Shown piece after piece: positions 2,843 through 25,242 of a DNA stretch of 26,809 bases. Position 1 is the stretch's first letter. Each line of letters starts with the position of its first letter. The stretch is from a candidate division FCPU426 bacterium (lineage in GTDB: Bacteria > Oederibacteriota > JAAXVQ01 > JAUVAV01). Made by a program: the position numbers and the translations under genes. The stretch lies in the NCBI GenBank assembly GCA_030637655.1, contig DAOWGI010000023.1, forward strand, positions 1-26,809. The letters are read 5' to 3'. The notes below the pieces were generated by a model, which saw nothing but the letters and a program-made list of their open reading frames with translations, was not told where the DNA came from and searched no databases.

Positions 2843-2884
2843 ACAGGTATTGTGGAGGGCACTTTTCCATATCTATCAATTACG

Positions 2885-2904: not shown

Positions 2905-3041
2905 GGCACCTGCCGGACTTAGGCACAAAAGCGGATTTTAAGCGCTATCTCTCTGTTGGAAAAGGGGTATAGCGGGGTATTATGAACAGATAGTTGTGCG
3001 TTTTTTTAAAACTCAGTTTATCTGAGCTGAAGGAGATTAAC

Positions 3042-4418: not shown

Positions 4419-4447
4419 TTGATATTTCAATGGTTATATGTTATACT
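4419..4447 (+). promoter_or_regulatory. sigma70-type promoter of giant gene 1
   Basis: TTGATA (4419-4424), 17 bp spacer, TATACT (4442-4447), with an extended -10 TG at 4439-4440. Confidence 0.65.
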
Positions 4448-4492: not shown

Positions 4493-7400
4493 ATGATTGT
4501 TTTTTGGCAGGTGTTATCTAAAAAAATAGCTCTTCAGGGCATAACCTCGATCATGGCGTGGCGCGCAGCACAGCGCAAAACAGGCTTAAAAGTTTTGGCT
4601 ATCACCCTGGCGCTGACTTTTGTCCTTCCTTTCCTGACCTGGGCTTTTGATCCTGCAAATTTCCAAATAGGTCTACAATCCGTTCTTTTTGACAACCATC
4701 AGGTATGGGTTCCGAAAAAGATCGGAACTGTCCAGCACACGTATCAAGACGGAGACCGGTTGGTGATTCATATTCAGGACTTGCATTGCAATTACGAGGT
4801 CCAGATGAATATCGCCCGCATTCTCCAGCGCCTGACCGAGAAACACGGCCTGCGCCTGATCTCGGTGGAGGGGACGTCGTTGCCCATTAGTACGGCTCAA
4901 ATCCGGACTTTTCCCATTAAAAAAATTCGTCAAGAGGTGAGTGATTATTTTGTCCGCCAGGGAAAACTCTCAGGCGCGGAGTACTATGCCGCAACCGGAG
5001 AGCATACTGTTCTGCTCGAAGGTGTTGAGAACGCCCGGCTCTACGCGCGCAATAAAAAATCAGTGGAGTTTATTTTAAAAGACGAGGGACAGGGCTATTG
5101 CTTTGACCTGCGCGATCTGCTGGACAGCCTGAAGCCGGGGATTTATTCGCCGGTCTTGATGAAGTATGACCAACAGTGCCGGATGTACCGCGAGGGCCGG
5201 GTGGGTGTGAGGCAGCACAGCCGGTTTTTAAAAAAAATCGCCAAACAATTAAAAATTCCATTTTCCTCCTTTTCGAATCTGACGGCTTACCTTGTCAGTC
5301 CTCATAAGTTATTTCCATTACATGTGGACGCGGACCAATTATTCAGGGAAATCGATCTCCTGGATCATCTGATCCGGGAGCGGTTTTATACCCAAAACCA
5401 AGAGCAAGAGCTGGATCAACATCTTCACCGTCTGGATATTATTGAGAAACTGCTGAATATCTCCGCCAATTCCGAAGAACTGTCGGAATTCCGCGGGCAC
5501 AGAGAGGCCTTTCGCATCCCCGCGTTTGTGCGTTTTATCCGGGAGCAGGATAAAAGCGGGGAGCTGGAAGTAGATTCTGGAATTTACCTGCTCGACGAAT
5601 ATTTGAACGCGGCTGAGGATTTTTACGAGGTGGCTGACGCGCGCAGCCGGCATTTGGCTGACAATACTCTGAAGCGCATGGCAAAGCACGATGAGACCTT
5701 GGCGGTTTTGGTGACCGGCGGATATCATACTGAGCATATTTTAGCTGCGCTGAAAACCAGCGGCGTATCCTACTTGTCAATTAAACCCCGCCTGACCAAA
5801 CAGGATTTGGTGAACCCTTATTTTTCACTCTTGAAAAATCGCCCTACGCCTTTAGAAAAATTACTCTCTCAGGACCAGAAAATATTTACCCTGGAACCGT
5901 ATTTACCCACGATTGCCAATCCTGACCGTATCCCTAAGGTGGAGGAACTTCCCGAAAAAAACCTGCGGTTTGCCAGACTGGTGGAGTTTTTCTTATTTAC
6001 TAAGGACGTAGCGCGCAACTTTATGCGCACTAAAGTGATTGCAGAGATTCAGAACCAGGTGACAAAGACCCTGTCCGGCCGGTTCTGGCAAAGTCTGATC
6101 AAGGCCGGCGCGTTCCGGGTGCATCCCAACCGGGTTCTTAGTTTTACGTTGACTGCGTCCAATAAGAAAAATATGCTGGTTGTGGTATGGCCTCATAAAG
6201 GCCGGTTGCCCTTGAATGAAAAAATTCTGCTGGAAAAAGCGGAATTTCCTGACGAGAACATTGCCGTGGTTGGCCCGGAAAATATAGCGCAAGTTCAGGC
6301 CAAACTGGATGCGATGTCCTCCTGGTCACTGGCGGATCTAAATCTGCGCCAAACCGTGGCGCTCTATCTGGCCTGGCGGTTTCTGCCGCGACTGCTGGCG
6401 GGAGCGCGCATCCTGACCAATCTGATGGCAGGGATACCAGAGCGGATCCGCATCCTCGGCGAACGGATCGCGGCTTGGACTAAGGAGTATCTGCCGCAGG
6501 TGGAGTGGGTTCAGTTGGCCGGCATGCCGGGTTCGCGGCTCATAGTGCAAAGGCCCTGGCTGGCCAGTGTCATGGAGAACCAAGGCAGCGATACGGGAAA
6601 GATTGGAACAGACCGCCTTGAAGATATCCGGTTTAGACTTGATGACCAGAGCGAAAGTGGATTGAAAATCGTCATTACTCAAGGCGTTAATTCACACTCT
6701 GATCTCAAGCGACTCTGTTCCCGGATAAATGATCTTCTGGAGCGCATTCCGGAAATAGCGCCTGAAGAGAAAGACCGGCTTGCGCAGGTTTTATCGGAGT
6801 TAAAAATTCCCAAAACTGCAGTTTCCGCCATGCACGAATTTATTAAACTGCGGCATATCGATGCTGAGAATATTATTCCCGTGCTAATCATTGTTGCGGA
6901 TTATCTTAGAGCTTTACCTGAGGCCGGAAAGAACACGGGTTTGGAACATCTTCGAACAGTTGTAACCCACCGTCAGATCAGCCGCGATGATTTTTTCGCA
7001 GCGCTACAAGCAACAACCCTGTTGCTGGCAAAGTGTCCGGAGCAAGAAACCAGAGACTTGCTCTCAATGATAGATGATACGCTGCACTTCACTAAGTATT
7101 TTAAACATAAAGCACTCGATATATTTTGGTTTTTAGCGCTGGTTGGTGATACGAGCTGCTCTGAAAATTTGCTCCTCAATTTACATGCCTTACGCCCCAT
7201 TCTCACTTCAGCCAATAAAATGGTCTTACAGGGTTTTCCGCTACATGAGATATTACCCAAATTGCTTGCTGCTGTGAGACCCGAGGCGACTGCTGCTGCG
7301 CTGCGTTCCCTGGAACCGCTGTTTGTCTCACTCGCCACGTGGAGCGAATTATCGGAAACAGACAGTGAATATCAGACTTGGCAGACCGTGCTCAGGCAAT

Positions 7401-10400
7401 TGCCGGACTTGTACGGGAAATTATCCGAAAATTCCGGGACAGCATTGCAGGAAGTGATTGCTTTGGTTATTTTACGCACCCAATTAGATATTATTAAATC
7501 AGATGCCATGAAGCCGGAAACGGTTTTGCAAACCATTGCAGCAATCCTGGAAATTTATCAACAGAATCCCATTAATCCTCATCTGGCTTTACTTGAATCG
7601 CAGAAGCCTTTTCTAACTGCCTTTGATTTTAAAGACGGGGGCCGGGCGGCTAATAAGGTCGGCCGGATTATACGGTATCTTTTTGAGAGTGTTCCTGATT
7701 TGAAGGCGGCGGTCATTCCGGGTTTTCCGGAACCAGCCGGCAACATCAGACCAAAACAATTGCCCCGGCTGACCTGGGATGAATTGATTCGTCAGGCAGG
7801 CATGGACCCGGCTGAGGAATATAAAGTCGAAATATTGGGCCGGAAAATTGTTTTCCAGGAAAAATTCGCAGACCGTTTGGGTTGCAAGCTGATTATTAAA
7901 ATATTAAAAGCCGGAGAAACAAACCACCGACTCCAGGATGAAGCGGCAGTTTTGGCATGGATGGCTGAAAACAATACGGATTACCGTGATATCGCACCTT
8001 TGGAATCATCTGCCGAATCAGAGCAAAAACCGGAATATCGTTTCCGGTTCAATTTTAAACAATGCGCTTTCAAAGCGGCAATGCAATCCGGACTGATTGA
8101 GGCAGACCGGCAATCAAAAAAAATGACTGGAAAATCCCTGGCAATTGACGAACAAAATTACCTGGCTATTGCCTATGTGGATAGATCAGGCACGCGCTTT
8201 GAACAAAATTTAGGCAGCCCGACTGTAGCAAAATGGGAAAAATTGCACACGAGTCTCTTGAAGCTAATGGGACAACTGGGAACACTGGCTCGCAAAGAGC
8301 TGGCCCATACCAGCTTGGCTAATATTTTTCATATTACCCACCATCCTAGACGGGCTGTTTTTTATATTAGTCAGTGCCTGAATCCGATCTTTAGGTATTC
8401 TCTCGGCCGGCAGACTGCCTGGAAACCGGCGGGCTGGGCTTTGAATGTGTCGCCTGAAGGCATGCTGAGGGATTTGAAATATCTCACTCCTATTTCAGAA
8501 TTGGGAAGAATTTTTGAATCGTATAAAAACGGAGACTGGAGTTCGATTATTTTTCAGCATAGCCAACATCCGAATAATGTAAGGCTTTTTGAGATATTGG
8601 GACGCTATCCTTTTGTTTTAATGCTGGCTCTGGGAGCCTGGCTGGATGATAATCAATGGCAAAATGTCAATTGGCAAAAAGACGAGACACTGGATGATCT
8701 GGCCCGAACGCTGGAGCAGGGTTTTCAGCGGTTTTTAATCAACTGGCAAAGTGAGGAAGTAAGTCCGGATATTCATGAAATGCAACAGTTGATTGACTGG
8801 AAAGCCTATGCCCGGCAAATGGCCGTTTGGATGAGCCAGGCTCATGTTAAACTTTTGCAAGAACCAAAACATTTTGGCCAGGACCGGCGATTGGAAAAAT
8901 TTCCCGGGCAAGCGCTTTACGGGCTTGGACCTGAAGCAATTACTTTTGATGTGTATAATTCTGAAGGCTGGGATCCCGAGCAGGGCGTGATCGGATCGAA
9001 GTCAGAGATTCCCTTTGCGCGCAACGTCCCTGCTTTAGGGCTGGTTCATGGTGATTTTCCTATTCAGGAATTTTTAAGTGTTATGCTTCCTATCGGCTTA
9101 AACATCGCGCATCTTGCATTAGAGCAAAAGTATGTTAAAGCGGTCACGAAGACAGATGCTGAAAGCTCTACTTTAATCAAAACATCCCTCCCGGTTCCAG
9201 TAGACGCGGAGTTGGAGCCTCAGGTCAATCGCTGCGAACTGGAAATCCTGGCTATAGCCCAAGAGCAGGGGGAAGTTCCCGGTCTTCACAATGAGCGCGA
9301 TTATTATCAGAAGTTTCTGGGCCAATATCCACTGGTAGTGGTTGAGCAAGCTCTGCAAAGAATTAGGGACAAGCAGCCTCTGAACCTTTCGCCAAAAATA
9401 CAACAGGTATTGTCAGAGCTAAGCAAGACCAAATGGATTGACAGCACTAAGGTAGAAATCAAGATCCGCGCCTTATCCCGGATCGAGAGGAGCGAGTCAG
9501 CCTGCTTTGAAATCATCCTGCGCAGTATTCCGGACAAGTATCCGAAGAATAAACGTAAGCCCAAGGAAAGATTATTTGCAAATTCTGAAATCGGGGAACT
9601 TAACCGCAAAGGCCTTTCAGCTTTCGTCGAGCGGCTGGATTTATGGGCCTACCTGAATGAGCTGGCAGAAACCGACTATTTCTTGACCTCGCGCGCTATC
9701 ATGCTGATATTTATCAATAATATTCAGCAGAAGGAACTGGAGGACTATATCAGGATATTTTGTGACAACGAAACCGGGCCCCACGGGATTGCGGTCCTGG
9801 CCGGCCGTGCGGCTGAACGCGTATTAGGCAAGCACCGGCCTCTGGATGAGACTAGGCGTTTGCTAGCGCAGCTGCGGCAGATTCCAAAAATCACGATGAG
9901 CGCAGTTAGTAATATCGTGGGCAGCCGGCTGACCGAAGCGGAGATTGAAAAATATTTTATCAAGCAACCCCAAATTGCGGCCGGCTCTTTGGCCCAGGTG
10001 GAAAGGGCTATCAAAGAGGTCATGAACAGCCGAAGGGAGGAAGAGACCCGCTCCCTGAAAGACCGGTCCCGGATATTCATCAATTCATTGCACGATTTAA
10101 AAATACTGGACGGCCCTACAACCTGGAAAAAAGTGGAGCGTCTGTTGAGAGCCAAACAGCTGCCACATAAAAAACCGGACCAAGGTAAAGGTTTCGAAGC
10201 CGAAGTTATATTGAAAGTTATGCACGGCATTCAGGCTTGCCAGGGAGAACGTTTAACCAAGAAACAAATTGAATTTATTTCCGGACGGACAACACTCGTT
10301 CGTCTGCGGGAAAAGCAGAAATTGATCCGCGCTTTCTATACTGATCACCAATATGCCGAGCTCTCTGGTGAAGTCTTAGTGAATTTATTGCTGAGTCCCC

Positions 10401-16465: not shown

Positions 16466-16546
16466 ATCTTCCCGGGCTTGCCCGTGGGGATCCATATTTT
16501 GCTAAAATGGAACATCATCACTTCGCCGCAACACAAATTGCGAAAT

Positions 16547-16575
16547 TTGACATAACCCTCAAAAGAGGATATATA
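16547..16575 (+). promoter_or_regulatory. sigma70-type promoter of giant gene 2
   Basis: TTGACA (16547-16552), 17 bp spacer, TATATA (16570-16575) inside an (AT)6 tract. Confidence 0.55.
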
Positions 16576-16731
16576 TATATTATAGGTTCTATAAATAAAA
16601 CATTATATTTTGATGATTATTCCCACAAAACTATTTTGCCTACAAACAATTCTAAAGTTTTTCCATACCAACGACGATAATTAAAAATTAACGACATTTT
16701 AGACATCTTGCCGGGGAATAAGGAAGGTATT

Positions 16732-19700
16732 ATGGATACGGTTTTTCGACGTCCTATTTTCCTCGCAAATCGGCATAAACCCTGGATAAAGGTTGTTGCA
16801 TTTTTACTTATGCTAACCTTTATTTTTCCTGGCCTCACCTGGACTTTTGCTGAAACATCTTTTCAACCGGAAACGCCGCCTATTTGTATTAATCAGCAAA
16901 TTGTTGAAATCCCGGAAAAATTAGGAAAAATCATAAAATCCTTTCAGGGCAATAAAAAATTAATAATTCATATACAGGATCAGCACTGTAACTACGAGGT
17001 GCAGAAAAATATAGCCGGCCTGATTGACTACCTGGCCGGGAAACACGGACTGGAGTTGGTGGGTGTAGAAGGCGCCGGCTTGCCTGTAAATGTGACCAAA
17101 CTCTCAACTTTTCCGGTGGAAAGTGTAAAAAAAGAAGTGGGTGATTATTTTGTAAAACTGGGAAAGATATCAGGCCCTGAATTTTACGCGGCTACCGGAC
17201 GTTATCCGGTTTGTCTGCAAGGAGTGGAAACCGCTAAACATTATGCGGCAAACCGCGAATGTGTACAGCGGTTTTTAAATGCTGAGAGCCAGGGATATGT
17301 GTATGACTTGCGCTATGCCTTGGATGAGATCAAGCAAAATATTTACGATTCCCGTTTGATAAGATTTGCCGCTCACAAGACCGCTTTTCAGACAGGAGAG
17401 CTGTCGTTATTAAAGTATGCGCGATATTTGCACAAGTATGCCGGGCGGCAAGGTTTGGCTTTAAGCGCTTATCCGCAAGTGCGCTGCTATATATCCAAGC
17501 AGATGGAAATATTACCCCAGGAGGTTGATTCAGACCAACTGTTGGATGAGTTGGATAGATTGGAGATTTGGCTGCGCACAAGTCTATACACCACCACAGA
17601 ACAACAGCAAATGGATGAGCTGCTGCGTTGTCTGGAAATCATAGAGAAGCTGCTGAATATTTCCGTGCGTCCGGAAGAATTAGCTGAGTATCGCGCTTAT
17701 CCTGAAAAATATCAGATTGAACATTTCGTGAAATTTATTTCCCGATATAGTGAGGACCAGGAGTATTATCTGGATCAGGAAATATACACGCTTAATCATT
17801 ATTTGGAGCAGGCAAAAGATTTTTATGCCATGGCTGACCAACGAAGTTTGGATTTTGTGGAAAATCTTGAAAAGCGCATGGAAGAGCAGGGAACCGGACA
17901 AGCCATTCTGGTTACAGGCGGATATCATACTGAAATAATTACCCATGAGTTACGCCGGCGCGGAATCAGCTTTATATCAGTAAGGCCGGTATTACGGCAG
18001 TTGGATAACGCAAATCCATATTTTTCACTGTTGCGAAATCGCCGGACATCCCTGGAGAAGATGCTGGCGTGGAATCAGAAGTACCTGTCATTGGGCATGT
18101 ATTTTATGGAGTGGATTGATGACCAGGTGGTCTTAAAGGAGAAGCAACTGCCTCCGGCTATCAGGCTGGATTACAAAATTCTGCAAATGACCCTGATTTT
18201 GTGGTGGTTAAAGAAACAGGTTGCCAAAGGCGAACTGACCGAGGCTGAATTCCAAGGTGTTCAGGAATATTTTATGGCCCATTACCCGGCTTTTAGTCAG
18301 GAAAACGGGGCATTGAACTTAAATAATATTAAGGCGTTTAAAGATACGATTCTCGTAGCACTGGCAGGTAGAGAGAATTGCGCTGCTATATATCCGCAAG
18401 ATCTGGGCAAACGCGTTCCCTCAGGTTTGATTTCTTCTCTTCCCATCAAGGGCTATGAGATTGGGTTTTACGCTAACCAACAAAAGCCCAAGCTGGAGGC
18501 TGCCTTCAGCGCAGGCCAAGCAGCCGGATCAGAAGACAGAGTGCTGGAATTGATCACAGCCCATATGCTGCCCTGGAGTCCGCTGATGCGGCCAGGGGTA
18601 CGAGCAGTGCTTCCGGTTATAAAGCGGTCCTGGGAGCAGGGCCGGATATGGGTAATGCAAAAATTCCAACAATTGCAAGAAACCGTTATTACCGGTCTCA
18701 GGGCCTGGCGTATGCAGCTGAAGCAAGCCGGCTTAGCCCTGGGAACAATTGATCTGAAAATCAGTGATATTAAAACATGGTCGGTCTTATTACGCGGCAT
18801 ATGGCGCAGGAATTCTTCACTGATATTTTATTTTCTGCCGTATGCCCCTATTATTGCTTATAGTTTATTATTAGCGAATGGCAATAATCCTGATATTCTT
18901 GCCGTTGGCATTCTATATAGTCCTAAAATTAAATTAAAGGAACAGTCTCCGGACAGGCCAAATACTACAGAAGCCTGGCAAGCTTTTTTCAATGACCTGG
19001 AGTCGGCCGGTGACAATCAAATAGTTAAGATCCTAAAAAGCATAAAAACACAGTATTTTGTTCAAATCTCTGAATTTATCCGGACCTCAGCACGCGAACG
19101 GCCCCAGGATTTGGAGCTGATTAAGCGTGTTCAACAAAAAATTACCAAATTTAAAACAACATCCGACTACACAGATTTCTTGGGCAGTAATATTACAGTA
19201 CCTACGTCGGAAAAAGTGGCAGTGGAAAACGCCCGGGTTTTTTCGAGCTATTTAGACGGCATATTGATGGTTGTGGATAAAATTATTCCAGTGCCGGAAA
19301 AAAATCAGGTTATTATAACCAATCTGAGCAGCATTGACGCCATTATTACGGATGACCGCTTTCGTAGCCAGCTCAACCTGCTGGAAGAAGCAGTAACCGC
19401 TTTTTTTAATATCATTAGCGATATCGACGTAGAGCTGGTAAAGGCTCACGCGCCTTATGCAAAGAGCATGGCTTTGGCGGATTTTCTCTTCGCGTACTGG
19501 GCATTTGGCAAAGATAAGAAAACTTTAAATTTGCTGATTAAAAATATTTACAATTGTGAAAGTTTTTCCGTACAAGAGCGCATGGCAATAAATAAATTTA
19601 TTATGTCTTTAGAGCAGAGTAAAATAAAGATTTCAGCGCGCCACGCCGGTTTTCCAGAAATTGCTGAGGCGGCGGAGGTTAAAGCGATTACCCCCAGGCG

Positions 19701-22700
19701 GAATGCGGTCATGGCGGCATTAGGAAAAGAACGAGCGAAGTTGTTCCCTGAAGCGAAGGAAGATCCCAGGGAGATACAGTCGCCGGATATTTTGACAGGG
19801 AAAATAATTCAAGCAATAAAAGCCGGGAATGCCATTGCCGAGGCGGATAAAAAAGCCCTGGTCGCAGTTGACACCGAAATCCGTATCCAATGTTTTTACG
19901 AGTGCATGCGGACAAATAAACAGGGAACACTAAGCAATCTGGATATATTCCAGCTTGCTTCAATTGATTTAGCGGTATTTTTGCATAAAGATATGCCCGA
20001 GATTCTGAAAGAAGTGTCAGGCGTTATTGGGACCATGACAGCTGAATTAAACTCCGGCAGTTATGAAGGCTGGAGTGATAAGACAAGTATAATTACAGAG
20101 AAAAGCCGGAAAGTACGGGATCAGTTTGAATTAATAGAAAAAAACGGGGATGCAGATCAAAAAGACGGCCGCCGGCAGGCAACTATATTGTTTACTTTAA
20201 TGAAAATAAATAATTCCGCAGCCAGGGCAATTACGGCTTTTGATAAAATAAAAGACAGCTTGGCTACCCTGGAGAACAAAGATTCGGCCGGCACCATAAG
20301 CAAGGGCCGTCTCAGCATGTATTTACTCAGGCATATGTTTTCGCCGGCCAATATTATAGCTTTAAGCGAAAATCTGCCTACAGCGGCTGCGCCCAATCTG
20401 TTCCAAAATGCGCTTAATCAGCTAATGCAATTGGAGGAAAAAGAATCCGCTGGTGATTTTTGCATAAAAGATATTTATTGGAAAAAGAGTCACACGATTA
20501 TTGTTGATTTGAGTAACCGGGCGGGTTTTTTCAAAAAAGACCGGAAATTGCAGGTGCCTACAGCCGAAGTCTTGGTAACCGATAAAGTCAAAGCCGGACC
20601 TAAACCCAGTTTGCCAAAGGTTAAGCGTTTCTCTGGAAAATTATCAAATAAAGATATAAATGCTTGGGCTGATAATATTTTGAATAAAATCGAAGCGGAC
20701 GGCTCTATTAACAGCGATAACCAGAAGCAATTCGCCGAAATTAAGAAGAAAATTTCCGCGGCTGATCTCAAAATCCGTATTCTTCTGGCCCAAGCCTGCC
20801 TGAAAAAAGATGCCTTACGAAGCTTTAATCATTGCGATATTTTTAAGTTAAAAGAGCTCGGACTGGATTTGCGCGTACAAGAGAATGATCATGATTTTGG
20901 AAATATTATGGGTGCGAGGTTGGGTAGAGTGTCTTTAGTCGTAACAGATTTGGAAGAAAAACCATATTTTGACGGTCAGGAAGACATTGTCGAATCACTT
21001 AAATCCAAATCCAGCCGATGCATTCGTAATTATACAATCATAAATAAGTATATAAAAATTATTAAGAATATCGAAAAAGCGGAAAAACAACTCGCAGATA
21101 TCAAGGAACATTTAGCAGGGTCAATTTCAAACGAAGAGCGAAATGATTTTAAAGCGGAGAAAAATACTTTGAAAAAAAACCTGAAATTCTATCTGGATAA
21201 CCTGGTTGAGGCTGCTAAAAAAAATAGCACGGCTGAAAATATCCCGGAACTTTTTATTACACTCGTGAACAGGGGATTGGCAGATAAAGCCATACGAGAC
21301 CATTGGTGGCAAGCGCTGCTTTTGTCTCCCATGTTGGAGATCAACCAGGACATGGCTGAGATGCACGAAAAATTGTCAGAACTGCAGAATCTCCTTATGA
21401 AGGGCAAGCTTGCTGATATTGATAAGCAATTGGCAGCATCAATATCAGCAAGCTATTTTGGAATCTTCTTGCTGAAAGATGTATTTTCAGATGAAAAAAT
21501 ATTCAGATTGGCCGCCGAGCCGCAACAAGTTGATTTGCAGCAGGTTTTTATAGCAGCCCAGAAAAACTTTGAAAGTGAGGAAAATATTTCTGTCAATTTA
21601 GTCACCAGTCCTGATTTCTTCGATAAGCCGCACATGGTTGAGGGTGATTATGGCGGGATATTGGATAAAATATTGGCAAATCTGGTAAAAAATGCCAAAG
21701 ATGAACTGGAGAAAAATGCCAAATCAGCTCAAGCAGAAGAAAAGGAATTTTCTGGAAAGATTTTGATCATTTTTGGCCAAAACGAGATCACGGTTCAGGA
21801 TAATGGCACCGGCATTCCAGCAGAGCGTTTGCGGATAGATGAAAACGACATACGGAATTTCGGTGTTACCACCAAGAAAGAAACAGGCGGCAGCGGTATT
21901 GGGGTTTTTGTAGTTAATCAGAGGATGGAAAGTCTGTCCGGTGAACTAGAAATCTCCAATCTAAAAGATCCGGATACCGGGGAGATAGTTGGCGCGGAAT
22001 TTAAATGCGTCTTCCAGCCATCCTCGCCTGGCACGTCTTATGTTGCGGAAGATAAAGTGTTCTCGAGAGTTATTGCGGAATTATCTAGAAGTGAAGCAAA
22101 AACGTACGAGCCGGAACATGCTTTGCCTAAAGAGCCAAAAGCGGCCAAGAAAGAAATCGCCCCAAAAAAACCTGCCAAGGAAAAACCTGCCGGGCCGAAA
22201 CGCACAGCTAAGACTAAAGGTAAAGTTACAGTCCCAAAAGTTAAGAAGCTGCAAGTTATTGATATGCCTTTAATTGTCAAGGAGAAAATTAATCCGAAAA
22301 TAAACGAAGCTATGACCAGGGCAATTCTATGGGTAGAGCAGTTGGCGTACTTGATGGATTTGTATATGAAAAAGGAGAGCCTATCCGGCGAACAATACCA
22401 GAGTCTGGAAAAAATACGCGACTCACTGGAGTCAAAGAAAAAGGAAATACTTGCTGAATTTGAAATCCTGTGCAATATCATGCAACCGAAGTTATTCAAA
22501 TCGTCAAGGGGTGAGGCAGGAGCCGACAGTTTGGTCTCGGAGTCCCCGAGCTTTTTGGAGCAATTTGCAAAAATAAATCAAGTAGTGGCCGGGATTTCTG
22601 TTGAATTATCAGATTTGCGGGAATATGCGGATCACAATCAGATAAATTACGCGGGAACCGCGATAGACGCGGAAGACAAGATTGACGTGATCACTGAAAC

Positions 22701-25242
22701 GGAACAAGCGATGGCTCAGGTGGCACGGGTATTTTCAGATGATATTCACAAAGATCAGGATTCAAAAAGAGCGAAAAAAAGGGAGCGTAAAAGACCTGGA
22801 AAAGACCCGGAAAAATATTTGTATGATGGCAAGGCCGCGCCGACGTCCGGCGGTATTATGCCAAGTGTAGTTGGAGCTGTGGGAGCAATTAAAGAATTTG
22901 ACCTGTTTCTGGCTATGGGAATAGGCACTCTGGCGGCTGCTGCTGTTTTAGGAATAGCGATGTTCATAGGCGGTCTGGCGCCGGCCATAGTGGTGACAGC
23001 AGCAAGTATAGCCTTTGTGGTGTTTGGGGGACTCGCGCTGAAAGCACAGCAGATGATGAGTATCCAAAAATTTTCGCTGGACAAGGAAGCGATTGTAGCG
23101 ATGATCCGGCGGGGCTTGTCCGGCGTGATCAAAATATGGCCGACCACGAAAAAAATCATCATTGCCAATGCTACGCGGCTGCCAGGTCCAACTCGCGGTC
23201 AAGGGAAAGGCGTGGTGCTTTATTGCACAATTATTCCGATAGTAGGCTGCACGGCTTTGCTCGGTGATTCCAATGTTTGGCTTGCTCTGGGCATGATGAT
23301 GGTTGTGTCCCTATGGAAATTATTCCACTTGAATTTCAGGAAAATTGCACTGGGGGTGCTTTCGCTTCGGCTGTTTATTGATAATAGGCTATTATCCACG
23401 TTCTTCTCCCGGGAAAAAATAAAAACAGAAAATACCGCTTACACCGCTGAAGAACTGAAACAGCTGAAAAGCCTGTACCTGGTTTTTAACACTAAGATAC
23501 CAGAAAAATTCCGCCGCTTGGCGCGCAAAAAGCTTAGCGCAAAAGAACAATTTAAATATGCCCGTGAAGCAGCGCGTATTCAGTCAGAGCTGGTCAAGGA
23601 CTGGATCGCGGAAAGAAAACTTTCGGAGAAGCTGGGGCAAGACTTGCAGGAATTTTTCCGGCAGTCACAAATAATGACCTTGGCCACCCATTACTATCTT
23701 CCGCCGGTAAAAGATATTAATCCATATTTGATTAATTGGTTGACTAAATTTCGGGGAACCGACACTTTCATGCACGCATTAAATGTGGTGGAGCCGGGTA
23801 TCTTTATGGAAATAGCGGGTAATCCGAAAATCCGGCAGGTAATCCTCACTCCGGCGCTGGAATTTTTTGCTGAGGAGGAAGGTGAGGTTGTCCTTTTCCG
23901 TTTGCCTCTTGAGTTTGACGCTGCCCAACAAAAAATGTTTCAAAAAAAAGTAAGGGAATTTGCCTATCAGGAAATAGGGAACCCGTATAATATGTCGAAA
24001 ATCATCTGGGGCTATCTGGGGGAATGGCTGGAAGACGGCTGGATTTGTACTGATTTGATTTTAAAGCAGTTGCAGGCTGCCGGAGTTGAGTTGCGTCCTG
24101 TCAGACAATTTTTCAACCTTTATCCATTCGTTTTTTCGGCTATCCCGGTGATTCCCCTGCTGGTATTGGCAATTGCGGCATTTGGATTCAATGGCCATAT
24201 AATTGGTTTGCTGGCAGTCGTTTATGCAGGACTTTGTTTCAGTTATCATAATGTTATCTCCGCGCACCGCATGTTTAAAGGTACGGTTGCAGGCAAAGAA
24301 CTGAAATGTGCATATGAACCACGACGGCATAAACGGAGTAATTGGATATTATTGAATCGCTATTTATGGCATTCCCAGCCGAACAAAGGATTCTGGGAAA
24401 GTTTCCTGCCCAGCGGTGATGAAAGCCTGACCACGAAAATTACTCTTGCCGCAACCGCGGTAGTTTTAGGCCTGCGCTGGATTTATCCTGATTTTAACTG
24501 GCTAGAATCCTTGCATGAAATGATTGCACATTTTACCAAACCTGGGCAGGAAATTCCGGAAATCCGCAGATCTTTGGCTGGGCTGCCTATGTTAGTGCTT
24601 CTCTCAATTTCTTGGGATGTCAAATTGCCGCTCAGATTAATGCAAAGGGGAATGAAGATTATAGCGCCGCCCTCAGTGTGGACAAAGTGGATTGAAAAAA
24701 TAATGAGAACCAGTGAGACCCTGCCCAGACGCATAGAAAACGTGATATATAAGCTATGTCAGAGTATAAATCCGGAAGCGTATATCAAGGTTGTGCAAGA
24801 CGGTATAATTGAACCGCGTTTAAAAACATTGCTCGAAAAAATATCCAGGCATAAGGACTATCCGAAATATGCGAAAGAACCGGACAAAATGACTGAATTG
24901 CTTATTCAAGAGATGACTGGCATGCTGAAAGCACAAAGCCGCGAGATAAAGAGGCTGGAAAAAACAGGTGAGTTTGAAAAAATGCAGAGATTACGTGTAG
25001 AACAACATAAATCCGTGATAGCGTTCCTGGAGATTTTAAGTAAAATAGCCGTATTCAATGTAGCTAAAATAGGAGAATTGAAAGATAAAGATATATTGGC
25101 GCCCATAAGGTTGCGGGAATTTCCCCGGGAATGGGGAATAATGATCGATATTTTACGGAAAATTCCAGTTATAAGATTAAATAATAAAGATCTATTTGAC
25201 CGGCCCCGCCGGATAAATATTATTACCGAGTGGGCGGTGTAG
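16732..25242 (+). CDS. Giant multidomain protein 2 (~2836 aa): same N-module, histidine-kinase-like region with HATPase_c, multiple TM segments, permuted papain-like domain, conserved C-tail
   Basis: Uninterrupted ORF; ATG 16732 is preceded by AAGGAAGG and preferred over TTG 16708; paralogous termini with giant 1. Confidence 0.92.
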   Translation: MDTVFRRPIFLANRHKPWIKVVAFLLMLTFIFPGLTWTFAETSFQPETPPICINQQIVEIPEKLGKIIKSFQGNKKLIIHIQDQHCNYEVQKNIAGLIDYLAGKHGLELVGVEGAGLPVNVTKLSTFPVESVKKEVGDYFVKLGKISGPEFYAATGRYPVCLQGVETAKHYAANRECVQRFLNAESQGYVYDLRYALDEIKQNIYDSRLIRFAAHKTAFQTGELSLLKYARYLHKYAGRQGLALSAYPQVRCYISKQMEILPQEVDSDQLLDELDRLEIWLRTSLYTTTEQQQMDELLRCLEIIEKLLNISVRPEELAEYRAYPEKYQIEHFVKFISRYSEDQEYYLDQEIYTLNHYLEQAKDFYAMADQRSLDFVENLEKRMEEQGTGQAILVTGGYHTEIITHELRRRGISFISVRPVLRQLDNANPYFSLLRNRRTSLEKMLAWNQKYLSLGMYFMEWIDDQVVLKEKQLPPAIRLDYKILQMTLILWWLKKQVAKGELTEAEFQGVQEYFMAHYPAFSQENGALNLNNIKAFKDTILVALAGRENCAAIYPQDLGKRVPSGLISSLPIKGYEIGFYANQQKPKLEAAFSAGQAAGSEDRVLELITAHMLPWSPLMRPGVRAVLPVIKRSWEQGRIWVMQKFQQLQETVITGLRAWRMQLKQAGLALGTIDLKISDIKTWSVLLRGIWRRNSSLIFYFLPYAPIIAYSLLLANGNNPDILAVGILYSPKIKLKEQSPDRPNTTEAWQAFFNDLESAGDNQIVKILKSIKTQYFVQISEFIRTSARERPQDLELIKRVQQKITKFKTTSDYTDFLGSNITVPTSEKVAVENARVFSSYLDGILMVVDKIIPVPEKNQVIITNLSSIDAIITDDRFRSQLNLLEEAVTAFFNIISDIDVELVKAHAPYAKSMALADFLFAYWAFGKDKKTLNLLIKNIYNCESFSVQERMAINKFIMSLEQSKIKISARHAGFPEIAEAAEVKAITPRRNAVMAALGKERAKLFPEAKEDPREIQSPDILTGKIIQAIKAGNAIAEADKKALVAVDTEIRIQCFYECMRTNKQGTLSNLDIFQLASIDLAVFLHKDMPEILKEVSGVIGTMTAELNSGSYEGWSDKTSIITEKSRKVRDQFELIEKNGDADQKDGRRQATILFTLMKINNSAARAITAFDKIKDSLATLENKDSAGTISKGRLSMYLLRHMFSPANIIALSENLPTAAAPNLFQNALNQLMQLEEKESAGDFCIKDIYWKKSHTIIVDLSNRAGFFKKDRKLQVPTAEVLVTDKVKAGPKPSLPKVKRFSGKLSNKDINAWADNILNKIEADGSINSDNQKQFAEIKKKISAADLKIRILLAQACLKKDALRSFNHCDIFKLKELGLDLRVQENDHDFGNIMGARLGRVSLVVTDLEEKPYFDGQEDIVESLKSKSSRCIRNYTIINKYIKIIKNIEKAEKQLADIKEHLAGSISNEERNDFKAEKNTLKKNLKFYLDNLVEAAKKNSTAENIPELFITLVNRGLADKAIRDHWWQALLLSPMLEINQDMAEMHEKLSELQNLLMKGKLADIDKQLAASISASYFGIFLLKDVFSDEKIFRLAAEPQQVDLQQVFIAAQKNFESEENISVNLVTSPDFFDKPHMVEGDYGGILDKILANLVKNAKDELEKNAKSAQAEEKEFSGKILIIFGQNEITVQDNGTGIPAERLRIDENDIRNFGVTTKKETGGSGIGVFVVNQRMESLSGELEISNLKDPDTGEIVGAEFKCVFQPSSPGTSYVAEDKVFSRVIAELSRSEAKTYEPEHALPKEPKAAKKEIAPKKPAKEKPAGPKRTAKTKGKVTVPKVKKLQVIDMPLIVKEKINPKINEAMTRAILWVEQLAYLMDLYMKKESLSGEQYQSLEKIRDSLESKKKEILAEFEILCNIMQPKLFKSSRGEAGADSLVSESPSFLEQFAKINQVVAGISVELSDLREYADHNQINYAGTAIDAEDKIDVITETEQAMAQVARVFSDDIHKDQDSKRAKKRERKRPGKDPEKYLYDGKAAPTSGGIMPSVVGAVGAIKEFDLFLAMGIGTLAAAAVLGIAMFIGGLAPAIVVTAASIAFVVFGGLALKAQQMMSIQKFSLDKEAIVAMIRRGLSGVIKIWPTTKKIIIANATRLPGPTRGQGKGVVLYCTIIPIVGCTALLGDSNVWLALGMMMVVSLWKLFHLNFRKIALGVLSLRLFIDNRLLSTFFSREKIKTENTAYTAEELKQLKSLYLVFNTKIPEKFRRLARKKLSAKEQFKYAREAARIQSELVKDWIAERKLSEKLGQDLQEFFRQSQIMTLATHYYLPPVKDINPYLINWLTKFRGTDTFMHALNVVEPGIFMEIAGNPKIRQVILTPALEFFAEEEGEVVLFRLPLEFDAAQQKMFQKKVREFAYQEIGNPYNMSKIIWGYLGEWLEDGWICTDLILKQLQAAGVELRPVRQFFNLYPFVFSAIPVIPLLVLAIAAFGFNGHIIGLLAVVYAGLCFSYHNVISAHRMFKGTVAGKELKCAYEPRRHKRSNWILLNRYLWHSQPNKGFWESFLPSGDESLTTKITLAATAVVLGLRWIYPDFNWLESLHEMIAHFTKPGQEIPEIRRSLAGLPMLVLLSISWDVKLPLRLMQRGMKIIAPPSVWTKWIEKIMRTSETLPRRIENVIYKLCQSINPEAYIKVVQDGIIEPRLKTLLEKISRHKDYPKYAKEPDKMTELLIQEMTGMLKAQSREIKRLEKTGEFEKMQRLRVEQHKSVIAFLEILSKIAVFNVAKIGELKDKDILAPIRLREFPREWGIMIDILRKIPVIRLNNKDLFDRPRRINIITEWAV
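16780..18085 (+). other. Conserved N-terminal module of giant 2
   Basis: KVVAFLLMLTFIFPGLTWTF, IHIQDQHCNYEVQ, VEG, GKISGPEF, QGVE, RS, VTGGYHTE, NPYFSLL. Confidence 0.8.
21520..22020 (+). other. HATPase_c (GHKL) histidine-kinase catalytic domain within giant 2
   Basis: N box ILANLVKNA, G1 VQDNGTGI, F-box region FGVTTK, G2 GSGIG, terminal GAEF. Confidence 0.9.
23660..24100 (+). other. Permuted papain-like amidase domain (YiiX/YaeF, peptidase C92-like) within giant 2
   Basis: INWLT..FMHA (His codon 23773), ME (Glu 23809), FR, IGNPY, WICTDLI..LQAAG (Cys 24046): the His-before-Cys order of permuted NlpC/P60 enzymes. Confidence 0.75.

What the first reader, a model, noticed from the sequence alone, without database searches (positions are those of the whole stretch)
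4493..25242. Tandem giant paralogs built as conserved cap + swappable enzymatic cargo + conserved tail: candidate undescribed polymorphic effector/export system
Seen: two adjacent ORFs (3990 and ~2836 aa), each with its own promoter, share a colinear ~450-aa N-module and a ~85-aa C-tail. The >2000 aa between them are unrelated (SidJ-like domain plus repeats versus histidine kinase plus permuted papain), and both have TM segments in the C-terminal part. Knowledge: fixed trafficking ends with variable multi-enzyme cargo is the logic of MARTX and other polymorphic toxins. I recall giant proteins with IQDxH-type N-termini from poorly characterised lineages such as Elusimicrobiota and Omnitrophota. 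Inference: this is a family of exported or contact-delivered polyproteins that manipulate another cell. No RTX, Rhs, CdiA or autotransporter signatures are visible, so the route would not be a classical one.
Basis: partly seen in the sequence, partly recalled or inferred. Interest (0 to 1): 0.92.

Follow-up and report, generated by a model that had tools for sequence, protein, structure and literature searches.

The report
Giant mosaic proteins with TIKI cap
Two neighbouring giant genes belong to a very large, unnamed family of membrane proteins that keep the same enzyme-like head and the same tail ending in two alanines while their long middles are reshuffled, and nobody yet knows what they do.

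Summary
The core observation holds. ORF A (3990 aa) and ORF B (2844 aa) share a 463-aa N-module (41% identity). They also share a divergent ~160-aa C-tail that only profiles detect. Their centres are unrelated.

They are 2 of 29 such ORFs, which fill 9.0% of this 3.28-Mb genome. All 14 sampled genomes of the same order carry 6-31 copies. A profile of the N-module finds 10,111 protein clusters.

New here: the N-module is an exported TIKI/ChaN/erythromycin-esterase-fold domain. The model has pLDDT 89.9, and all five PDB chains with Z>=8 are TIKI members. The catalytic set is invariant: D-x-H, E, R, H. The tail is a folded domain with a flexible end that stops in Ala-Ala. That ending occurs in 15 of 25 own family ORFs, against about 4 of 1,668 other ORFs.

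The centres are mosaics of shuffled blocks. In a related strain, 875 codons inside ORF A are replaced in frame by 392 others. In Omnitrophota the cap is a separate secreted protein, next to an outer-membrane-like protein and a protein that ends in Ala-Ala.

The toxin/effector reading is not supported: there are many TM segments, no immunity or secretion neighbours, and housekeeping-like cargo. Function remains inferred.

The parts
4419..4447 (+). sigma-70-like promoter match upstream of ORF A (TTGATA-17-TATACT with TG)
   Evidence: The count does not exceed shuffles. Similar TGnTATAnT elements lie upstream of many paralogs (by eye).
4493..16465 (+). ORF A, 3990 aa, giant family member
4580..4645 (+). 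ORF A aa 30-51: N-terminal export signal or signal anchor ending in the conserved ...LPFLTWA|FD motif
   Evidence: 23 of 23 own paralogs have more positive charge before this stretch than after it.
4565..5950 (+). ORF A N-module (aa 25-486), TIKI-superfamily fold with a long helical insert
   Evidence: AF2 model pLDDT 89.9. VIA-align top hits are ChaN, HopBA1, BcR136, EreC and BcR135, Z 8.6-9.6.
4772..4789 (+). IQDLHC: invariant Asp96-x-His98 of ORF A
   Evidence: spacing as in TIKI enzymes
4862..4873 (+). SVEG: invariant Glu126, 28 residues after His98
5633..5647 (+). ADARS: invariant Arg384
5717..5731 (+). GGYHT: invariant Gly-Gly-x-His412, 28 residues after Arg384
   Evidence: Weak Pfam PF04187 matches fall here.
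6593..9217 (+). 2625-nt (875-codon) stretch of ORF A that a contig of run X6 replaces by 1176 other letters (392 codons); a contig of X5 joins 6595 to 9191
   Evidence: table 5
7523..9358 (+). ORF A aa 1011-1622: module shared with paralog C4:29259-34754 (24% over 639 aa) and with P0034 (30% over 665 aa); holds IIKILK and VHGDF; fold unknown
   Evidence: No Pfam or PDB sequence match.
9323..11257 (+). ORF A internal repeat, copy 1 (aa 1611-2255)
11588..13519 (+). ORF A internal repeat, copy 2 (aa 2366-3009)
15095..15244 (+). ORF A hydrophobic pair, aa 3535-3553 and 3566-3584
   Evidence: Kyte-Doolittle, window 19, threshold 1.7
15587..15643 (+). ORF A hydrophobic segment, aa 3699-3717
15965..16462 (+). 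ORF A C-tail (aa 3825-3990), ends ...RLNINAA
   Evidence: AF2 model pLDDT 86 with the last ~10 aa at pLDDT 59. No clear PDB fold match.
16466..16707 (.). A-B spacer; the only place where single-base indels between strains were listed
   Evidence: table 4
16708..25242 (+). ORF B, 2844 aa from TTG (ATG at 16732 gives 2836 aa)
16771..18105 (+). ORF B N-module; catalytic set Asp91, His93, Glu121, Arg379, His407
18820..18876 (+). ORF B hydrophobic segment aa 705-723; most paralogs have one at about aa 630-720
18925..19740 (+). ORF B aa 740-1011: block 50.5% identical to aa 1205-1477 of paralog C65:8530-15525, at a different position there
21661..21963 (+). ORF B HATPase_c (GHKL ATPase) domain, aa 1652-1752
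22906..23307 (+). ORF B cluster of hydrophobic segments, aa 2067-2200
24148..24234 (+). ORF B hydrophobic pair, aa 2481-2509
24736..25239 (+). ORF B C-tail (aa 2677-2844), ends ...ITEWAV; 71% identical to the tail of the 5'-cut ORF on C12, with no similarity upstream of it

Best explanation
ORFs A and B are two members of a very large, unnamed family of giant mosaic envelope proteins.

SHOWN:
- Each member starts with a positively charged N-terminus and a hydrophobic export signal or anchor.
- A ~430-aa TIKI-superfamily domain follows. This is the fold of ChaN, erythromycin esterases, HopBA1, RRSP and TraB/Tiki.
- Its catalytic residues never vary: Asp-x-His, Glu 28 residues later, Arg, and His 28 residues after the Arg.
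- A helical insert of about 190 aa sits between the two halves of that domain.
- Each complete member ends with a ~160-aa folded domain. Its flexible last residues usually stop in Ala-Ala.
- Between the two ends lie 1,000 to more than 11,000 residues: shuffled blocks, repeats, hydrophobic segments and divergent copies of ordinary enzymes.

INFERRED:
- The cap lies outside the cytoplasmic membrane. The stand-alone Omnitrophota homologues have classical cleavable signal peptides.
- The hydrophobic segments thread later modules to either side of the membrane.
- The cap works as a hydrolase, most likely a peptidase or esterase. It would process or mature the giant protein itself, its paralogs or an envelope substrate.
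- The free Ala-Ala carboxyl end is a tag read at the C-terminus. The tag would mark a completed chain.
- The two ends are the fixed handling parts. The centre is the evolvable payload, exchanged by in-frame recombination.

It is not a classical polymorphic toxin.
For: Family and architecture:
- The own genome holds 29 N-module matches. 27 ORFs of at least 1000 aa carry the module.
- The family makes up 29 ORFs, 98,293 aa, 9.0% of the genome.
- 10/10 genomes of the same family and 4/4 of the same order have 6-31 copies. 0/46 genomes of other orders of the phylum match at E<=1e-10.
- The profile finds 10,111 cluster representatives at E<=1e-3. In nearly all of the 150 best, the module starts within the first ~50 residues.

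Cap:
- D72, H74, E102, R360 and H388 are invariant in 73 sequences that go down to 23% identity.
- The spacings equal those of RRSP: E3900-x-H3902, E3930, R4001, H4030 (PMC6254334, passages). They also fit my TraB alignment: H19 to E45, R220 to H246.
- The AF2 model has pLDDT 89.9 and pTM 0.84.
- All 5 PDB representatives with Z>=8, of 48,161, are TIKI members. These are ChaN 2g5g Z 9.6, HopBA1 5t09 Z 9.6, BcR136 2qgm Z 9.4, EreC 6xcq Z 9.3 and BcR135 2rad Z 8.6. PMT (Z 6.7) and RRSP (Z 6.3) also appear.
- The Atlas model of homologue P0153 has ChaN, TraB and DUF5694 clusters as its nearest non-family neighbours.

Export:
- 23 of 23 own paralogs have more positive charge before than after the first hydrophobic stretch.
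- By eye, 13 of 14 Omnitrophota stand-alone forms show signal peptides with A-x-A-like sites.

Tail:
- Leave-clade-out HMMs detect A and B.
- 72 of 205 database family proteins hit an iterated tail HMM. 70 of those hits lie within 15 aa of the C-terminus.
- Ala-Ala ends 15/25 own and 80/205 database family proteins. It ends 19/1693 own ORFs of at least 200 aa, and 15 of those 19 are family members.
- The AF2 tail model has pLDDT 86, with a floppy end.

Mosaic centre:
- Median best coverage of a centre by any other paralog is 0.21 over 20 complete paralogs. The best N partner equals the best tail partner for only 3 of 20.
- Shared blocks sit at non-colinear positions.
- The closest foreign relative, P0003, shares the N-part (52%) and the last 343 aa (45%) but not the centre.
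- A cassette is replaced in frame in strains X6 and X5. Indels in coding DNA come in frame-restoring groups.

Split form:
- In Omnitrophota the cap is a ~530-aa protein.
- In 10 of 14 loci it follows a 960-1340-aa protein that ends in ...YRF or ...GKF.
- It precedes an adjacent protein that ends Ala-Ala in 6 of 8 complete cases.
Against: - No activity, processing, topology or expression datum exists. No RNA run holds the stretch.
- Sequence profiles do not place the cap in a TIKI family. Pfam PF04187 matches only 5 of 73 members, best E 0.017, under the cut-off.
- hhalign against four TraB/GumN sequences gives probability 0.09.
- The fold matches cover about 170 of 462 residues at rmsd 4.0-4.8 A.
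- ChaN and PMT are TIKI-fold proteins without peptidase activity, so fold alone does not give chemistry.
- ORF B ends in Ala-Val, not Ala-Ala.
- The residue before Ala-Ala is mostly Asn, Gly, Ser or Gln. In E. coli such residues make weak ClpXP tags (PMC10862746, passages).
- The tail HMM does not hit the Omnitrophota downstream proteins. The link there rests on the last two residues and on adjacency, and those loci are kin, not independent.
- TM segments come from a crude hydropathy scan, so the sidedness of the centre and the tail is not established.
- The cap-tail contact was never tested, because the complex job was not accepted.
Confidence: 0.5

Rival explanations
1. These are polymorphic effector polyproteins in the manner of MARTX. 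Fixed ends traffic the protein out of the cell or into a neighbour. The TIKI cap acts as the (auto)processing protease. The swappable centre is released to manipulate another cell.
For: - TIKI-fold domains serve in delivered effectors and toxins: RRSP of MARTX, HopBA1, PMT.
- The centre is exchanged between close strains in frame and is mosaic among paralogs. That is the pattern of conflict genes.
- Many cargo enzymes need cytoplasmic cofactors. They could act in a foreign cytoplasm.
- Related phyla are described as host-dependent or predatory (abstracts and passages).
- In Omnitrophota the cap gene sits beside an outer-membrane-like protein and, in 2 of 3 loci scanned, near a GspC-like PDZ gene.
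Against: - Most paralogs carry many hydrophobic segments along the chain. That fits retention in the membrane, not release.
- No immunity-like or secretion gene recurs within 5 kb of the 27 paralogs.
- Pfam finds no RTX, Rhs, haemagglutinin, CPD or autotransporter domain. PADLOC finds nothing.
- The cargo is not of toxin type. It includes PGK, NTP-transferase, DnaJ, methyltransferases and repeats.
- The variable part is central, not C-terminal as in polymorphic toxins.
- The OMP-like protein of the Omnitrophota cassette was not found in this genome with one query.
Confidence: 0.15
2. These are membrane-tethered multi-enzyme scaffolds that work in the producer's own cell, like the 'multi-enzyme metabolic cluster' class described for Omnitrophota. 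The cap is only an outward-facing anchor, sensor or ligand-binding domain of ChaN type. The tail is a structural or oligomerisation domain. No processing or tag reading takes place.
For: - The cargo is housekeeping-like and membrane-associated.
- The same picture is drawn for Omnitrophota giants of at least 10 kAA (10.64898/2026.06.07.730766, sections 8 and 9).
- ChaN, the joint-best fold match, is a binding protein.
- The genome keeps its own canonical PGK. The giant's copy is an extra, divergent one.
Against: - The five catalytic-type residues of the cap are invariant over 73 sequences down to 23% identity. That is hard to explain for a mere anchor.
- A terminal Ala-Ala kept across phyla while the rest of the tail diverges beyond HMM reach points to recognition of the free end, not to a structural role.
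- ORF A has no recognisable enzyme at all.
Confidence: 0.25
3. The giant frames are not real proteins. They would be assembly chimeras or decaying pseudogenes that happen to stay open.
For: - Many paralogs lie at contig ends.
- One paralog (C103) has an in-frame TAG inside its N-module.
- No RNA evidence exists.
Against: - Contigs of two other runs of the same study cover the stretch piecewise without a difference.
- Diverged strains from other studies keep the frame: indels come in frame-restoring groups and the cassette swap is a multiple of three.
- 10,111 clusters share the module at the N-terminus.
- Both ends fold with high confidence.
Confidence: 0.03

Closest known systems
Giant 'multi-enzyme metabolic cluster' and archaeovorin-type proteins of Omnitrophota and neighbouring phyla (West-Roberts et al. 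2023, bioRxiv 10.1101/2023.11.21.568195; Nielsen & Lui 2026, bioRxiv 10.64898/2026.06.07.730766)
   Same: - Very long ORFs in little-known, PVC-related candidate phyla.
- Many TM helices or a signal peptide.
- Divergent copies of sugar-metabolism enzymes, methyltransferases, HATPase_c, AAA_5, SecA-like and repeat domains.
- Sequence-unique centres.
- Function unknown.
(Sections read.)
   Different: - Those studies set thresholds of at least 10 kAA or at least 30 kAA. They state that N-terminal regions 'generally lack identifiable domains' apart from C39/S8 peptidases.
- Here the members are mostly 2-5 kAA (one of 12,210 aa).
- They are defined by a shared TIKI-fold cap and a shared Ala-Ala tail.
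- They occur as 6-31 paralogs per genome in an order whose labelled MAG relatives are called Firestonebacteria or Goldiibacteriota.
- The supplements of both preprints, which hold the domain catalogues, could not be seen.
TIKI superfamily (Tiki, TraB/PrgY/GumN, ChaN, erythromycin esterases, HopBA1, RRSP, PMT C1-C2)
   Same: - The predicted core fold matches.
- The His/Glu/Arg/His set has the same spacing.
- Some members sit outside the membrane. From recall: Tiki and PrgY are membrane-tethered and ChaN is a lipoprotein.
   Different: - No significant sequence-profile match.
- A helical insert of about 190 aa splits the domain.
- Asp stands in place of the first Glu.
- The domain is fused to the N-terminus of giant polytopic proteins.
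MARTX toxins
   Same: - Conserved ends with a variable set of internal enzymatic modules.
- A protease domain in the same chain.
- One MARTX effector (RRSP) has the TIKI fold.
   Different: - Pfam finds no RTX repeats or CPD.
- There is an N-terminal signal or anchor and internal TM segments. From recall, MARTX toxins instead use type I secretion of a soluble chain.
- The cargo is not of toxin type.
ssrA-like C-terminal degrons (…Leu-Ala-Ala-COOH) read by ClpXP, and non-polar C-termini read by tail-specific protease
   Same: A free C-terminal Ala-Ala on a flexible end. Terminal Ala-Ala is the critical element of ClpXP tags (PMC10862746, passages).
   Different: - The residues before Ala-Ala are mostly polar or Gly. 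That paper found such tags weak in E. coli.
- The compartment of the tail is unknown.
- No test was done.

Membership tests
TIKI superfamily (fold level) | alpha/beta core: central parallel beta-sheet flanked by helices | tested here: met
   AF2 model pLDDT 89.9 with strands 54-60, 66-72, 98-101, 150-153, 379-385 and 402-408. All 5 chains with Z>=8, of 48,161, are TIKI members, with 167-176 residues aligned at rmsd 4.0-4.8. The definition is taken from PMC6254334 passages.
TIKI superfamily (active enzymes) | 2His/2Glu catalytic set: acid-x-His, Glu about 28 residues later, second His | tested here: met
   D72-x-H74, E102 (+28) and H388 are invariant in 73 sequences. Asp replaces the first Glu. 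RRSP has E3900-x-H3902, E3930 (+28) and H4030.
TIKI superfamily (active enzymes) | conserved basic residue near the active site, about 28-29 residues before the second His | tested here: met
   R360 is invariant, 28 residues before H388. RRSP has R4001 and H4030. The TraB alignment has R220 and H246.
TIKI superfamily (any Pfam family: PF04187, PF01963) | significant match to a curated family profile | tested here: not met
   PF04187 matches 5 of 73 members, best E 0.017, under the cut-off. hhalign against 4 TraB/GumN sequences gives probability 0.09. A PDB profile search finds nothing related.
TIKI superfamily (active enzymes) | hydrolase activity | not testable with these tools
   needs purified protein
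Polymorphic toxin systems (Rhs, CdiA, MARTX and the like) | repeat or trafficking domains of the class (RTX, Rhs/YD, haemagglutinin repeats, CPD, autotransporter barrel) | tested here: not met
   Pfam scan of A and B at E up to 0.1 gives only HATPase_c in B. No such domain was listed for the other 27 family ORFs, scanned in 30 pieces.
Polymorphic toxin systems | small immunity gene directly downstream of the variable toxin end | tested here: not met
   B follows A after 242 nt. A convergent GGDEF gene follows B. No recurrent small neighbour lies within 5 kb of the 27 paralogs.
Polymorphic toxin systems | variable part is a C-terminal toxin domain (nuclease, deaminase, ADP-ribosyltransferase, pore former) | tested here: not met
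   The C-terminus is the conserved part. The variable centre carries housekeeping-like enzymes and repeats.
Omnitrophota-type giant membrane proteins (class 1, multi-enzyme) | length of at least 10,000 aa, as used in the two preprints | tested here: not met
   A has 3990 aa and B 2844 aa. One paralog has at least 12,210 aa.
Omnitrophota-type giant membrane proteins (class 1, multi-enzyme) | signal peptide and/or many TM helices, with several unrelated enzyme domains in one chain | tested here: inconclusive
   Hydrophobic segments are present, and the family carries many enzyme Pfams. But A has no recognisable enzyme and B has one. No trained TM predictor was available.
Sensor histidine kinase (ORF B) | HATPase_c together with a HisKA or dimerisation-phosphoacceptor domain | tested here: not met
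   Only HATPase_c was found. NCBIfam matches are far below the cut-offs and limited to the ATPase part.
ssrA-like ClpXP degron | terminal Ala-Ala preceded by hydrophobic residues on an accessible end | tested here: inconclusive
   Ala-Ala ends A and 15/25 own family ORFs. B ends Ala-Val. The end is flexible in the model. The preceding residues are mostly N, G, S or Q, which are weak in E. coli.

The most novel reading that the evidence does not exclude
The TIKI cap and the Ala-Ala tail together form a so far unknown handling system for oversized envelope proteins. The outward-facing cap hydrolase and the C-terminal tag would act on each other, in cis or between paralogs. Their action would mature, release or quality-control chains that are too long for ordinary pathways. 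The Omnitrophota three-gene cassette is the same system in split form: an outer-membrane-like protein, a secreted cap protein and an Ala-Ala-terminated protein. That would make it a new export or processing route, onto which an evolvable payload of 1,000-11,000 residues has been grafted many times.
Probability: 0.2. Interest if true: 0.9.

Novelty: new variant of a known kind. Interest (0 to 1): 0.72.

Why it matters
Giant genes take up a striking share of some uncultured bacterial genomes. Here 19% lies in ORFs of at least 1000 aa, and 9% in this one family. Their function is an open question in the two preprints that catalogue them.

This work gives the question a handle.
- The family has at least 10,111 clusters and can be recognised by two short, testable parts.
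- One part is an exported TIKI-type hydrolase with five invariant residues. The other is a C-terminal domain that ends in Ala-Ala.
- Both parts are small enough to express, mutate and assay, unlike the whole proteins.
- The in-frame cassette swap between strains and the split form in Omnitrophota give natural experiments for what the ends do.

If the ends prove to be a processing or export device, it would explain how bacteria make and handle proteins of thousands to tens of thousands of residues.

Tried and rejected
A stored homologue, P0153, was used instead. The Atlas search with part of P0148, for the module shared with ORF A aa 1011-1622, gave only noise-level leads: Kdo and APH kinases at 0.75. 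That is no support for 'SidJ-like'.
- Pfam at E up to 5 found no family for the 'SidJ-like' stretch (A aa 1011-1622), the 'permuted papain' stretch (B aa 2270-2480), either tail or the A repeat. PDB sequence searches at E up to 10 found none for the first two stretches.
- NCBIfam found nothing for A. PADLOC found nothing for either ORF.
- PF04187 was not found in 61 relatives or in the controls, so no ChaN alignment could be built.
- PF01963 gave only 4 sequences. Protein comparison failed internally. hhalign in the script box then gave probability 0.09.
- The PDB profile search with the N-module found only chance hits.
- The C-tail fold search gave a best Z of 7.8 among mixed helical bundles, so no assignment was made.
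- The tail HMMs did not hit the Omnitrophota downstream proteins.
- The OMP-like Omnitrophota protein was not found in this genome with one query.
- No RNA holder is listed for the stretch.
- Foldseek against the PDB was busy.
- The cap-tail complex job was never accepted because the queue was full. That question is untested.
- A careful ML tree did not finish. Only the quick tree is reported.
- A recent tandem duplication of A and B was considered and rejected. They fall in different sub-clades of the N-module tree and share only 41-42% identity.
- Type I secreted LapA-like adhesins were also considered and rejected. These have an N-terminal retention module and a C-terminal signal. Here Pfam finds no RTX repeats, and an N-terminal signal and TM segments are present.


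Full report
**1. The observation**

The window holds two long frames on the + strand.
- ORF A runs 4493-16465 (3990 aa, ATG).
- ORF B runs 16708-25242 (2844 aa from TTG).

BLASTP of A against B gives one strong, ungapped HSP: 192/463 identical (41%), E 3e-111, A 25-487 against B 20-482. Every other HSP has E >= 0.12. That includes a 156-residue alignment of the two C-termini at 24% and E 2.0. So the N-module is confirmed, the centres are unrelated, and the C-tail cannot be shown from the pair alone.

Domain content:
- Pfam finds nothing above cut-off in A, and only HATPase_c (aa 1652-1752, E 4.2e-10) in B.
- NCBIfam adds nothing, and PADLOC nothing.
- A carries an internal duplication, aa 1611-2255 ~ 2366-3009, at 26% identity.
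They were not tested by folding.

Promoters:
- A promoter-like site lies before A (4419-4447). The scan found none in the A-B spacer, and neither count exceeds shuffles.

Flanking genes:
- Upstream lie a nitroreductase-family gene (1967-2842) and an unassigned gene (2994-4115).
- Downstream lies a convergent GGDEF gene (25326-26186, -).

**2. A large paralog family**

The window is contig C3 of a 3.28-Mb, 120-contig genome rated 91.6% complete. The A N-module has 29 matches in that genome, in open frames of up to 12,216 aa.

A six-frame ORF count gives these figures:
- 96 ORFs of at least 1000 aa make up 19.1% of the genome.
- 27 of them carry the N-module.
- With two 5'-cut ORFs that carry only the tail, the family is 29 ORFs, 98,293 aa, 9.0% of the genome.
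- Tandem pairs occur on C3 (A and B), C98 and C115.

Distribution in 60 relatives searched with a profile of the module:
- 10 of 10 genomes of the same family and 4 of 4 of the same order have 6-31 matches each.
- 0 of 46 genomes of other orders of the phylum have one at E <= 1e-10.

Wider distribution:
- A scan of one genome per species found 80 loci. They lie in MAGs labelled Firestonebacteria, Goldiibacteriota, Auribacterota, Omnitrophota, Elusimicrobiota/Endomicrobiales, 'PVC group' and 'Planctomycetia'.
- Against 1.84 billion cluster representatives, the profile finds 10,111 proteins at E <= 1e-3 and 6,849 at E <= 1e-30. In nearly all of the 150 best, the module starts within the first ~50 residues.
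- In a quick ML tree of 73 modules, the nine own copies are interspersed with those of other genomes. A and B sit in different sub-clades, so they are old paralogs and not a recent tandem copy (the careful search did not finish).

**3. What the N-module is**

Conserved residues:
- In a 73-sequence alignment reaching down to 23% identity, ten columns never vary. Among them are D72, H74, E102, R360, G385, G386 and H388.
- In ORF A these are Asp96, His98, Glu126, Arg384 and His412. In ORF B they are Asp91, His93, Glu121, Arg379 and His407.

Sequence searches are weak:
- Pfam's ChaN family (PF04187, 'Tiki superfamily') matches 5 of 73 members, best E 0.017, at the GGxH stretch.
- A PDB profile search finds nothing.
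- hhalign against four TraB/GumN sequences gives probability 0.09.

The residue pattern fits the TIKI superfamily.
- For the TIKI-fold endopeptidase RRSP, the catalytic set is Glu3900-x-His3902, Glu3930, a conserved Arg4001 and His4030 (PMC6254334, passages read).
- The spacings there are 28 (His to Glu) and 29 (Arg to His). In the module they are 28 and 28. In my TraB alignment they are 26 and 26.

The structure settles the fold.
- AlphaFold2 on the 73-row alignment gives pLDDT 89.9 and pTM 0.84.
- An exhaustive alignment to 48,161 PDB representatives gives five chains with Z >= 8, and all five are TIKI-superfamily proteins:

| Chain | Protein | Z | Aligned residues |
|---|---|---|---|
| 2g5g | ChaN | 9.6 | 167 |
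| 5t09 | HopBA1 | 9.6 | 169 |
| 2qgm | BcR136 | 9.4 | 170 |
| 6xcq | EreC | 9.3 | 176 |
| 2rad | BcR135 | 8.6 | 169 |

- PMT (Z 6.7) and RRSP (Z 6.3) come further down the same list.
- The aligned residues flank a helical insert, at about model residues 157-374.
- Independently, the Atlas's own model of a close homologue (P0153) has ChaN, TraB/GumN and DUF5694 clusters as its nearest non-family neighbours. All were 'under the bar'.

I therefore file the cap as a TIKI-fold domain with a complete catalytic-type residue set. It is not a member of any curated TIKI family.

**4. Where the cap sits**

- All 23 own paralogs with an intact start have more positive charge before the first hydrophobic stretch than after it.
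- That stretch ends in a conserved ...P[YF][LV]TWA|F[DE] motif.
- In Omnitrophota the module exists as a separate protein of about 530 aa (14 loci). By eye, 13 of these 14 begin with a short classical signal peptide with an A-x-A-like site.
- I infer that the cap is exported. This is not shown.

A crude hydropathy scan finds a second hydrophobic segment at about aa 630-720 in most paralogs (B: 705-723), with many more downstream. ORF A has none between aa 52 and 3535. The sidedness of the later parts is therefore open.

**5. The C-tail**

Evidence that the tail is a shared domain:
- All-against-all BLASTP of the last 200 residues links family tails transitively. Examples are B-C115 at 1.6e-7, C115-C39 at 4e-8 and C39-A at 1.8e-11. 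Family tails only hit other family members or two 5'-cut ORFs.
- An HMM of 23 own tails hits nothing else among the 96 long ORFs except those two 5'-cut ORFs.
- Built without the A clade, it still finds A (1.3e-12), C39 (2.4e-9) and C66 (6.6e-6). Built without B, it finds B at 3.7e-5. The best non-family ORFs score 0.11 and 0.064 respectively.
- Among 205 database proteins with the cap, an iterated tail HMM hits 72. In 70 of them the hit lies within 15 residues of the C-terminus.

The last two residues are the most conserved feature:
- Ala-Ala ends 15 of 25 own tail-bearing ORFs, and 21 of 25 end in [A/S/M]-Ala. ORF B ends Ala-Val.
- Ala-Ala ends 80 of the 205 database proteins, many of which are probably cut at contig ends.
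- Only 19 of 1,693 own ORFs of at least 200 aa end in Ala-Ala, and 15 of those 19 are the family.

Structure of the tail:
- AlphaFold2 folds the last 170 residues of A with pLDDT 86 and pTM 0.80. The model has a helical hairpin, a beta hairpin and further helices, and the last ~10 residues are at pLDDT 59.
- No PDB chain reaches Z 8.

**6. The centre is a mosaic and can be swapped**

Among the own paralogs:
- Over 20 complete paralogs, the median share of a centre covered by any other paralog (BLASTP, E < 1e-5) is 0.21, with a range of 0.00-0.83.
- The closest N-module partner is also the closest tail partner for only 3 of 20.
- Shared blocks sit at different positions. B 740-1011 matches C65 1205-1477 at 50.5%. 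C57 603-699 matches C43 1295-1388 at 60%.
- Similarity can stop abruptly. B and the C12 ORF are 71% identical over the last 185 aa and share nothing before that.

Against other genomes and strains:
- The closest foreign relative in hand, P0003, shares A's first 628 aa (52%) and last 343 aa (45%) but not the centre.
- A contig of run X6 (another study, flanks about 90-95% alike) joins window 6592 to 9218 with 1176 other letters between. That is 875 codons replaced by 392, both multiples of three.
- A contig of X5 joins 6595 to 9191.
- The listed indels inside the coding parts come in frame-restoring groups. Single-base indels were listed only in the A-B spacer.
- Contigs of X2 and X3, from the same study as the likely source, match piecewise without a difference. 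This is not independent support.

Recognisable cargo:
- In the own paralogs each has something different. The list is DnaJ, AAA_5 with LRR, Arm/HEAT, GH99 with phosphomannose isomerase, protein kinase, glycosyltransferase, methyltransferases, aldose epimerase, metallophosphatase, NTP-transferase with PGK, and LysM. 16 of the 30 pieces scanned have no Pfam match.
- Precomputed Pfam labels of 120 listed relatives add PPDK/PEP-utilising domains, enolase, TIM, FBPase, PFK, phosphoglucomutase, SecA and others.
- The genome keeps a canonical PGK (548 bits). The giant's copy is divergent (93 bits).

**7. The split form in Omnitrophota**

Around the ~530-aa stand-alone cap genes:
- In 10 of 14 loci, the gene upstream encodes a 960-1340-aa protein with a signal peptide. 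Its C-terminus reads ...GG(L/Q/F)Y(R/K)F or ...(K/S)GKF. I read this, from general knowledge, as typical of outer-membrane barrels.
- The gene directly downstream encodes a 430-1444-aa protein with an N-terminal anchor. It ends in Ala-Ala in 6 of 8 complete cases, with one Ala-Val and one Cys-Val.
- In 2 of 3 loci scanned with Pfam, a GspC-like PDZ protein lies two genes upstream.

Limits on this evidence:
- These loci are related to each other, so they count as few independent observations.
- The tail HMMs do not hit the downstream proteins.
- Still, a cap gene beside a gene whose product ends in Ala-Ala, in a lineage where the two are not fused, points to a functional link between the two ends.
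- The OMP-like protein was not found in this genome with one query.
- No accessory gene recurs next to the 27 paralogs here.

**8. How it most likely works**

Shown: the architecture, the fold and invariant residues of the cap, the terminal motif, the mosaic centre and the in-frame swap.

Inferred:
- The cap is outside the membrane.
- The cap is a hydrolase that processes a protein or envelope substrate, possibly the family's own chains.
- The free Ala-Ala end is a tag read at the carboxyl terminus.
- Terminal Ala-Ala is the critical element of ClpXP tags. However, polar or Gly residues before it, as in most family members, made weak tags in E. coli (PMC10862746, passages). The reader of the tag is therefore open.

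I give this combined reading 0.5. Most of the doubt is on the last two steps. The rivals and their weights:

| Rival reading | Weight |
|---|---|
| Plain membrane-tethered enzyme scaffold, without processing | 0.25 |
| Non-genes | 0.03 |

**9. What is known, and novelty**

- Giant genes in Omnitrophota, Elusimicrobiota and neighbours are described. So are their TM helices, SecA-like domains and divergent enzyme domains, and a 'multi-enzyme metabolic cluster' class.
- For 10.1101/2023.11.21.568195 I read the abstract, section 7 and passages. For 10.64898/2026.06.07.730766 I read the abstract, sections 8-9 and passages. I read passages of PMC12057145 and PMC11573180.
- The first preprint states that N-terminal regions generally lack identifiable domains.
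- I found no mention of a shared TIKI-type cap, a shared tail or the terminal Ala-Ala. The searches were made, plus the 'find' look-ups.
- Supplements were closed and may hold domain tables that bear on this.
- I rate the finding a new variant of a known kind. The phenomenon is known. The family definition, the cap's fold and residues, the tail tag, the strain-level cassette swap and the split form are new as far as I could check.

Noticed in passing
whole genome G000 (e.g. C20, C8, C56): 96 ORFs of at least 1000 aa fill 19.1% of the 3.28-Mb genome. Several giants lack the N-module or are cut at contig ends: 9463 aa on C20, 8532 aa on C8, 4629 aa on C56. So at least one further giant family exists.
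   Followed up: no
G000 contigs C20, C8, C45, C36, C64: A separate family of ~1030-1175-aa paralogs shares 30-68% identical C-terminal 200 residues. Several lie in tandem.
   Followed up: no
G000:C103:10-1179: One family member has an in-frame TAG inside its N-module. It may be a pseudogene, a sequencing error or a read-through site.
   Followed up: no
G000 paralogs on C57, C43, C40, C10, C93: The N-modules of these paralogs are 74-84% identical while their centres share only about 10-20%. This suggests gene conversion or recent exchange of the cap among paralogs.
   Followed up: partly
L063, L068, L079 and 11 further Omnitrophota-type loci: A conserved cassette. It has a large signal-peptide protein ending in ...YRF (outer-membrane-like), a secreted stand-alone cap protein of ~530 aa, and an adjacent anchored protein ending in Ala-Ala. 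PKD-domain and GspC-like PDZ genes lie upstream in two loci.
   Followed up: partly
upstream regions of the paralogs, e.g. window 4430-4447: Many paralogs have a TGnTATAnT (extended -10-like) element about 50-110 nt before the start. ORF B has no obvious one (by eye).
   Followed up: no
window 274-840 (-) and 2994-4115 (+): The first is a small lysine-rich protein with an N-terminal hydrophobic signal. The second is a 373-aa protein with a sub-threshold RRM match and one hydrophobic segment. Both are unassigned.
   Followed up: no
window 9044-9058 and 7892-7909: ORF A holds VHGDF (aa 1518-1522) and IIKILK (aa 1134-1139). From recall, these resemble the catalytic-loop and lysine motifs of aminoglycoside/choline-kinase-like folds. 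It is untested.
   Followed up: partly
window 15000-19000: Near-identical DNA is held by cold-seep metagenome runs of several studies.
   Followed up: partly
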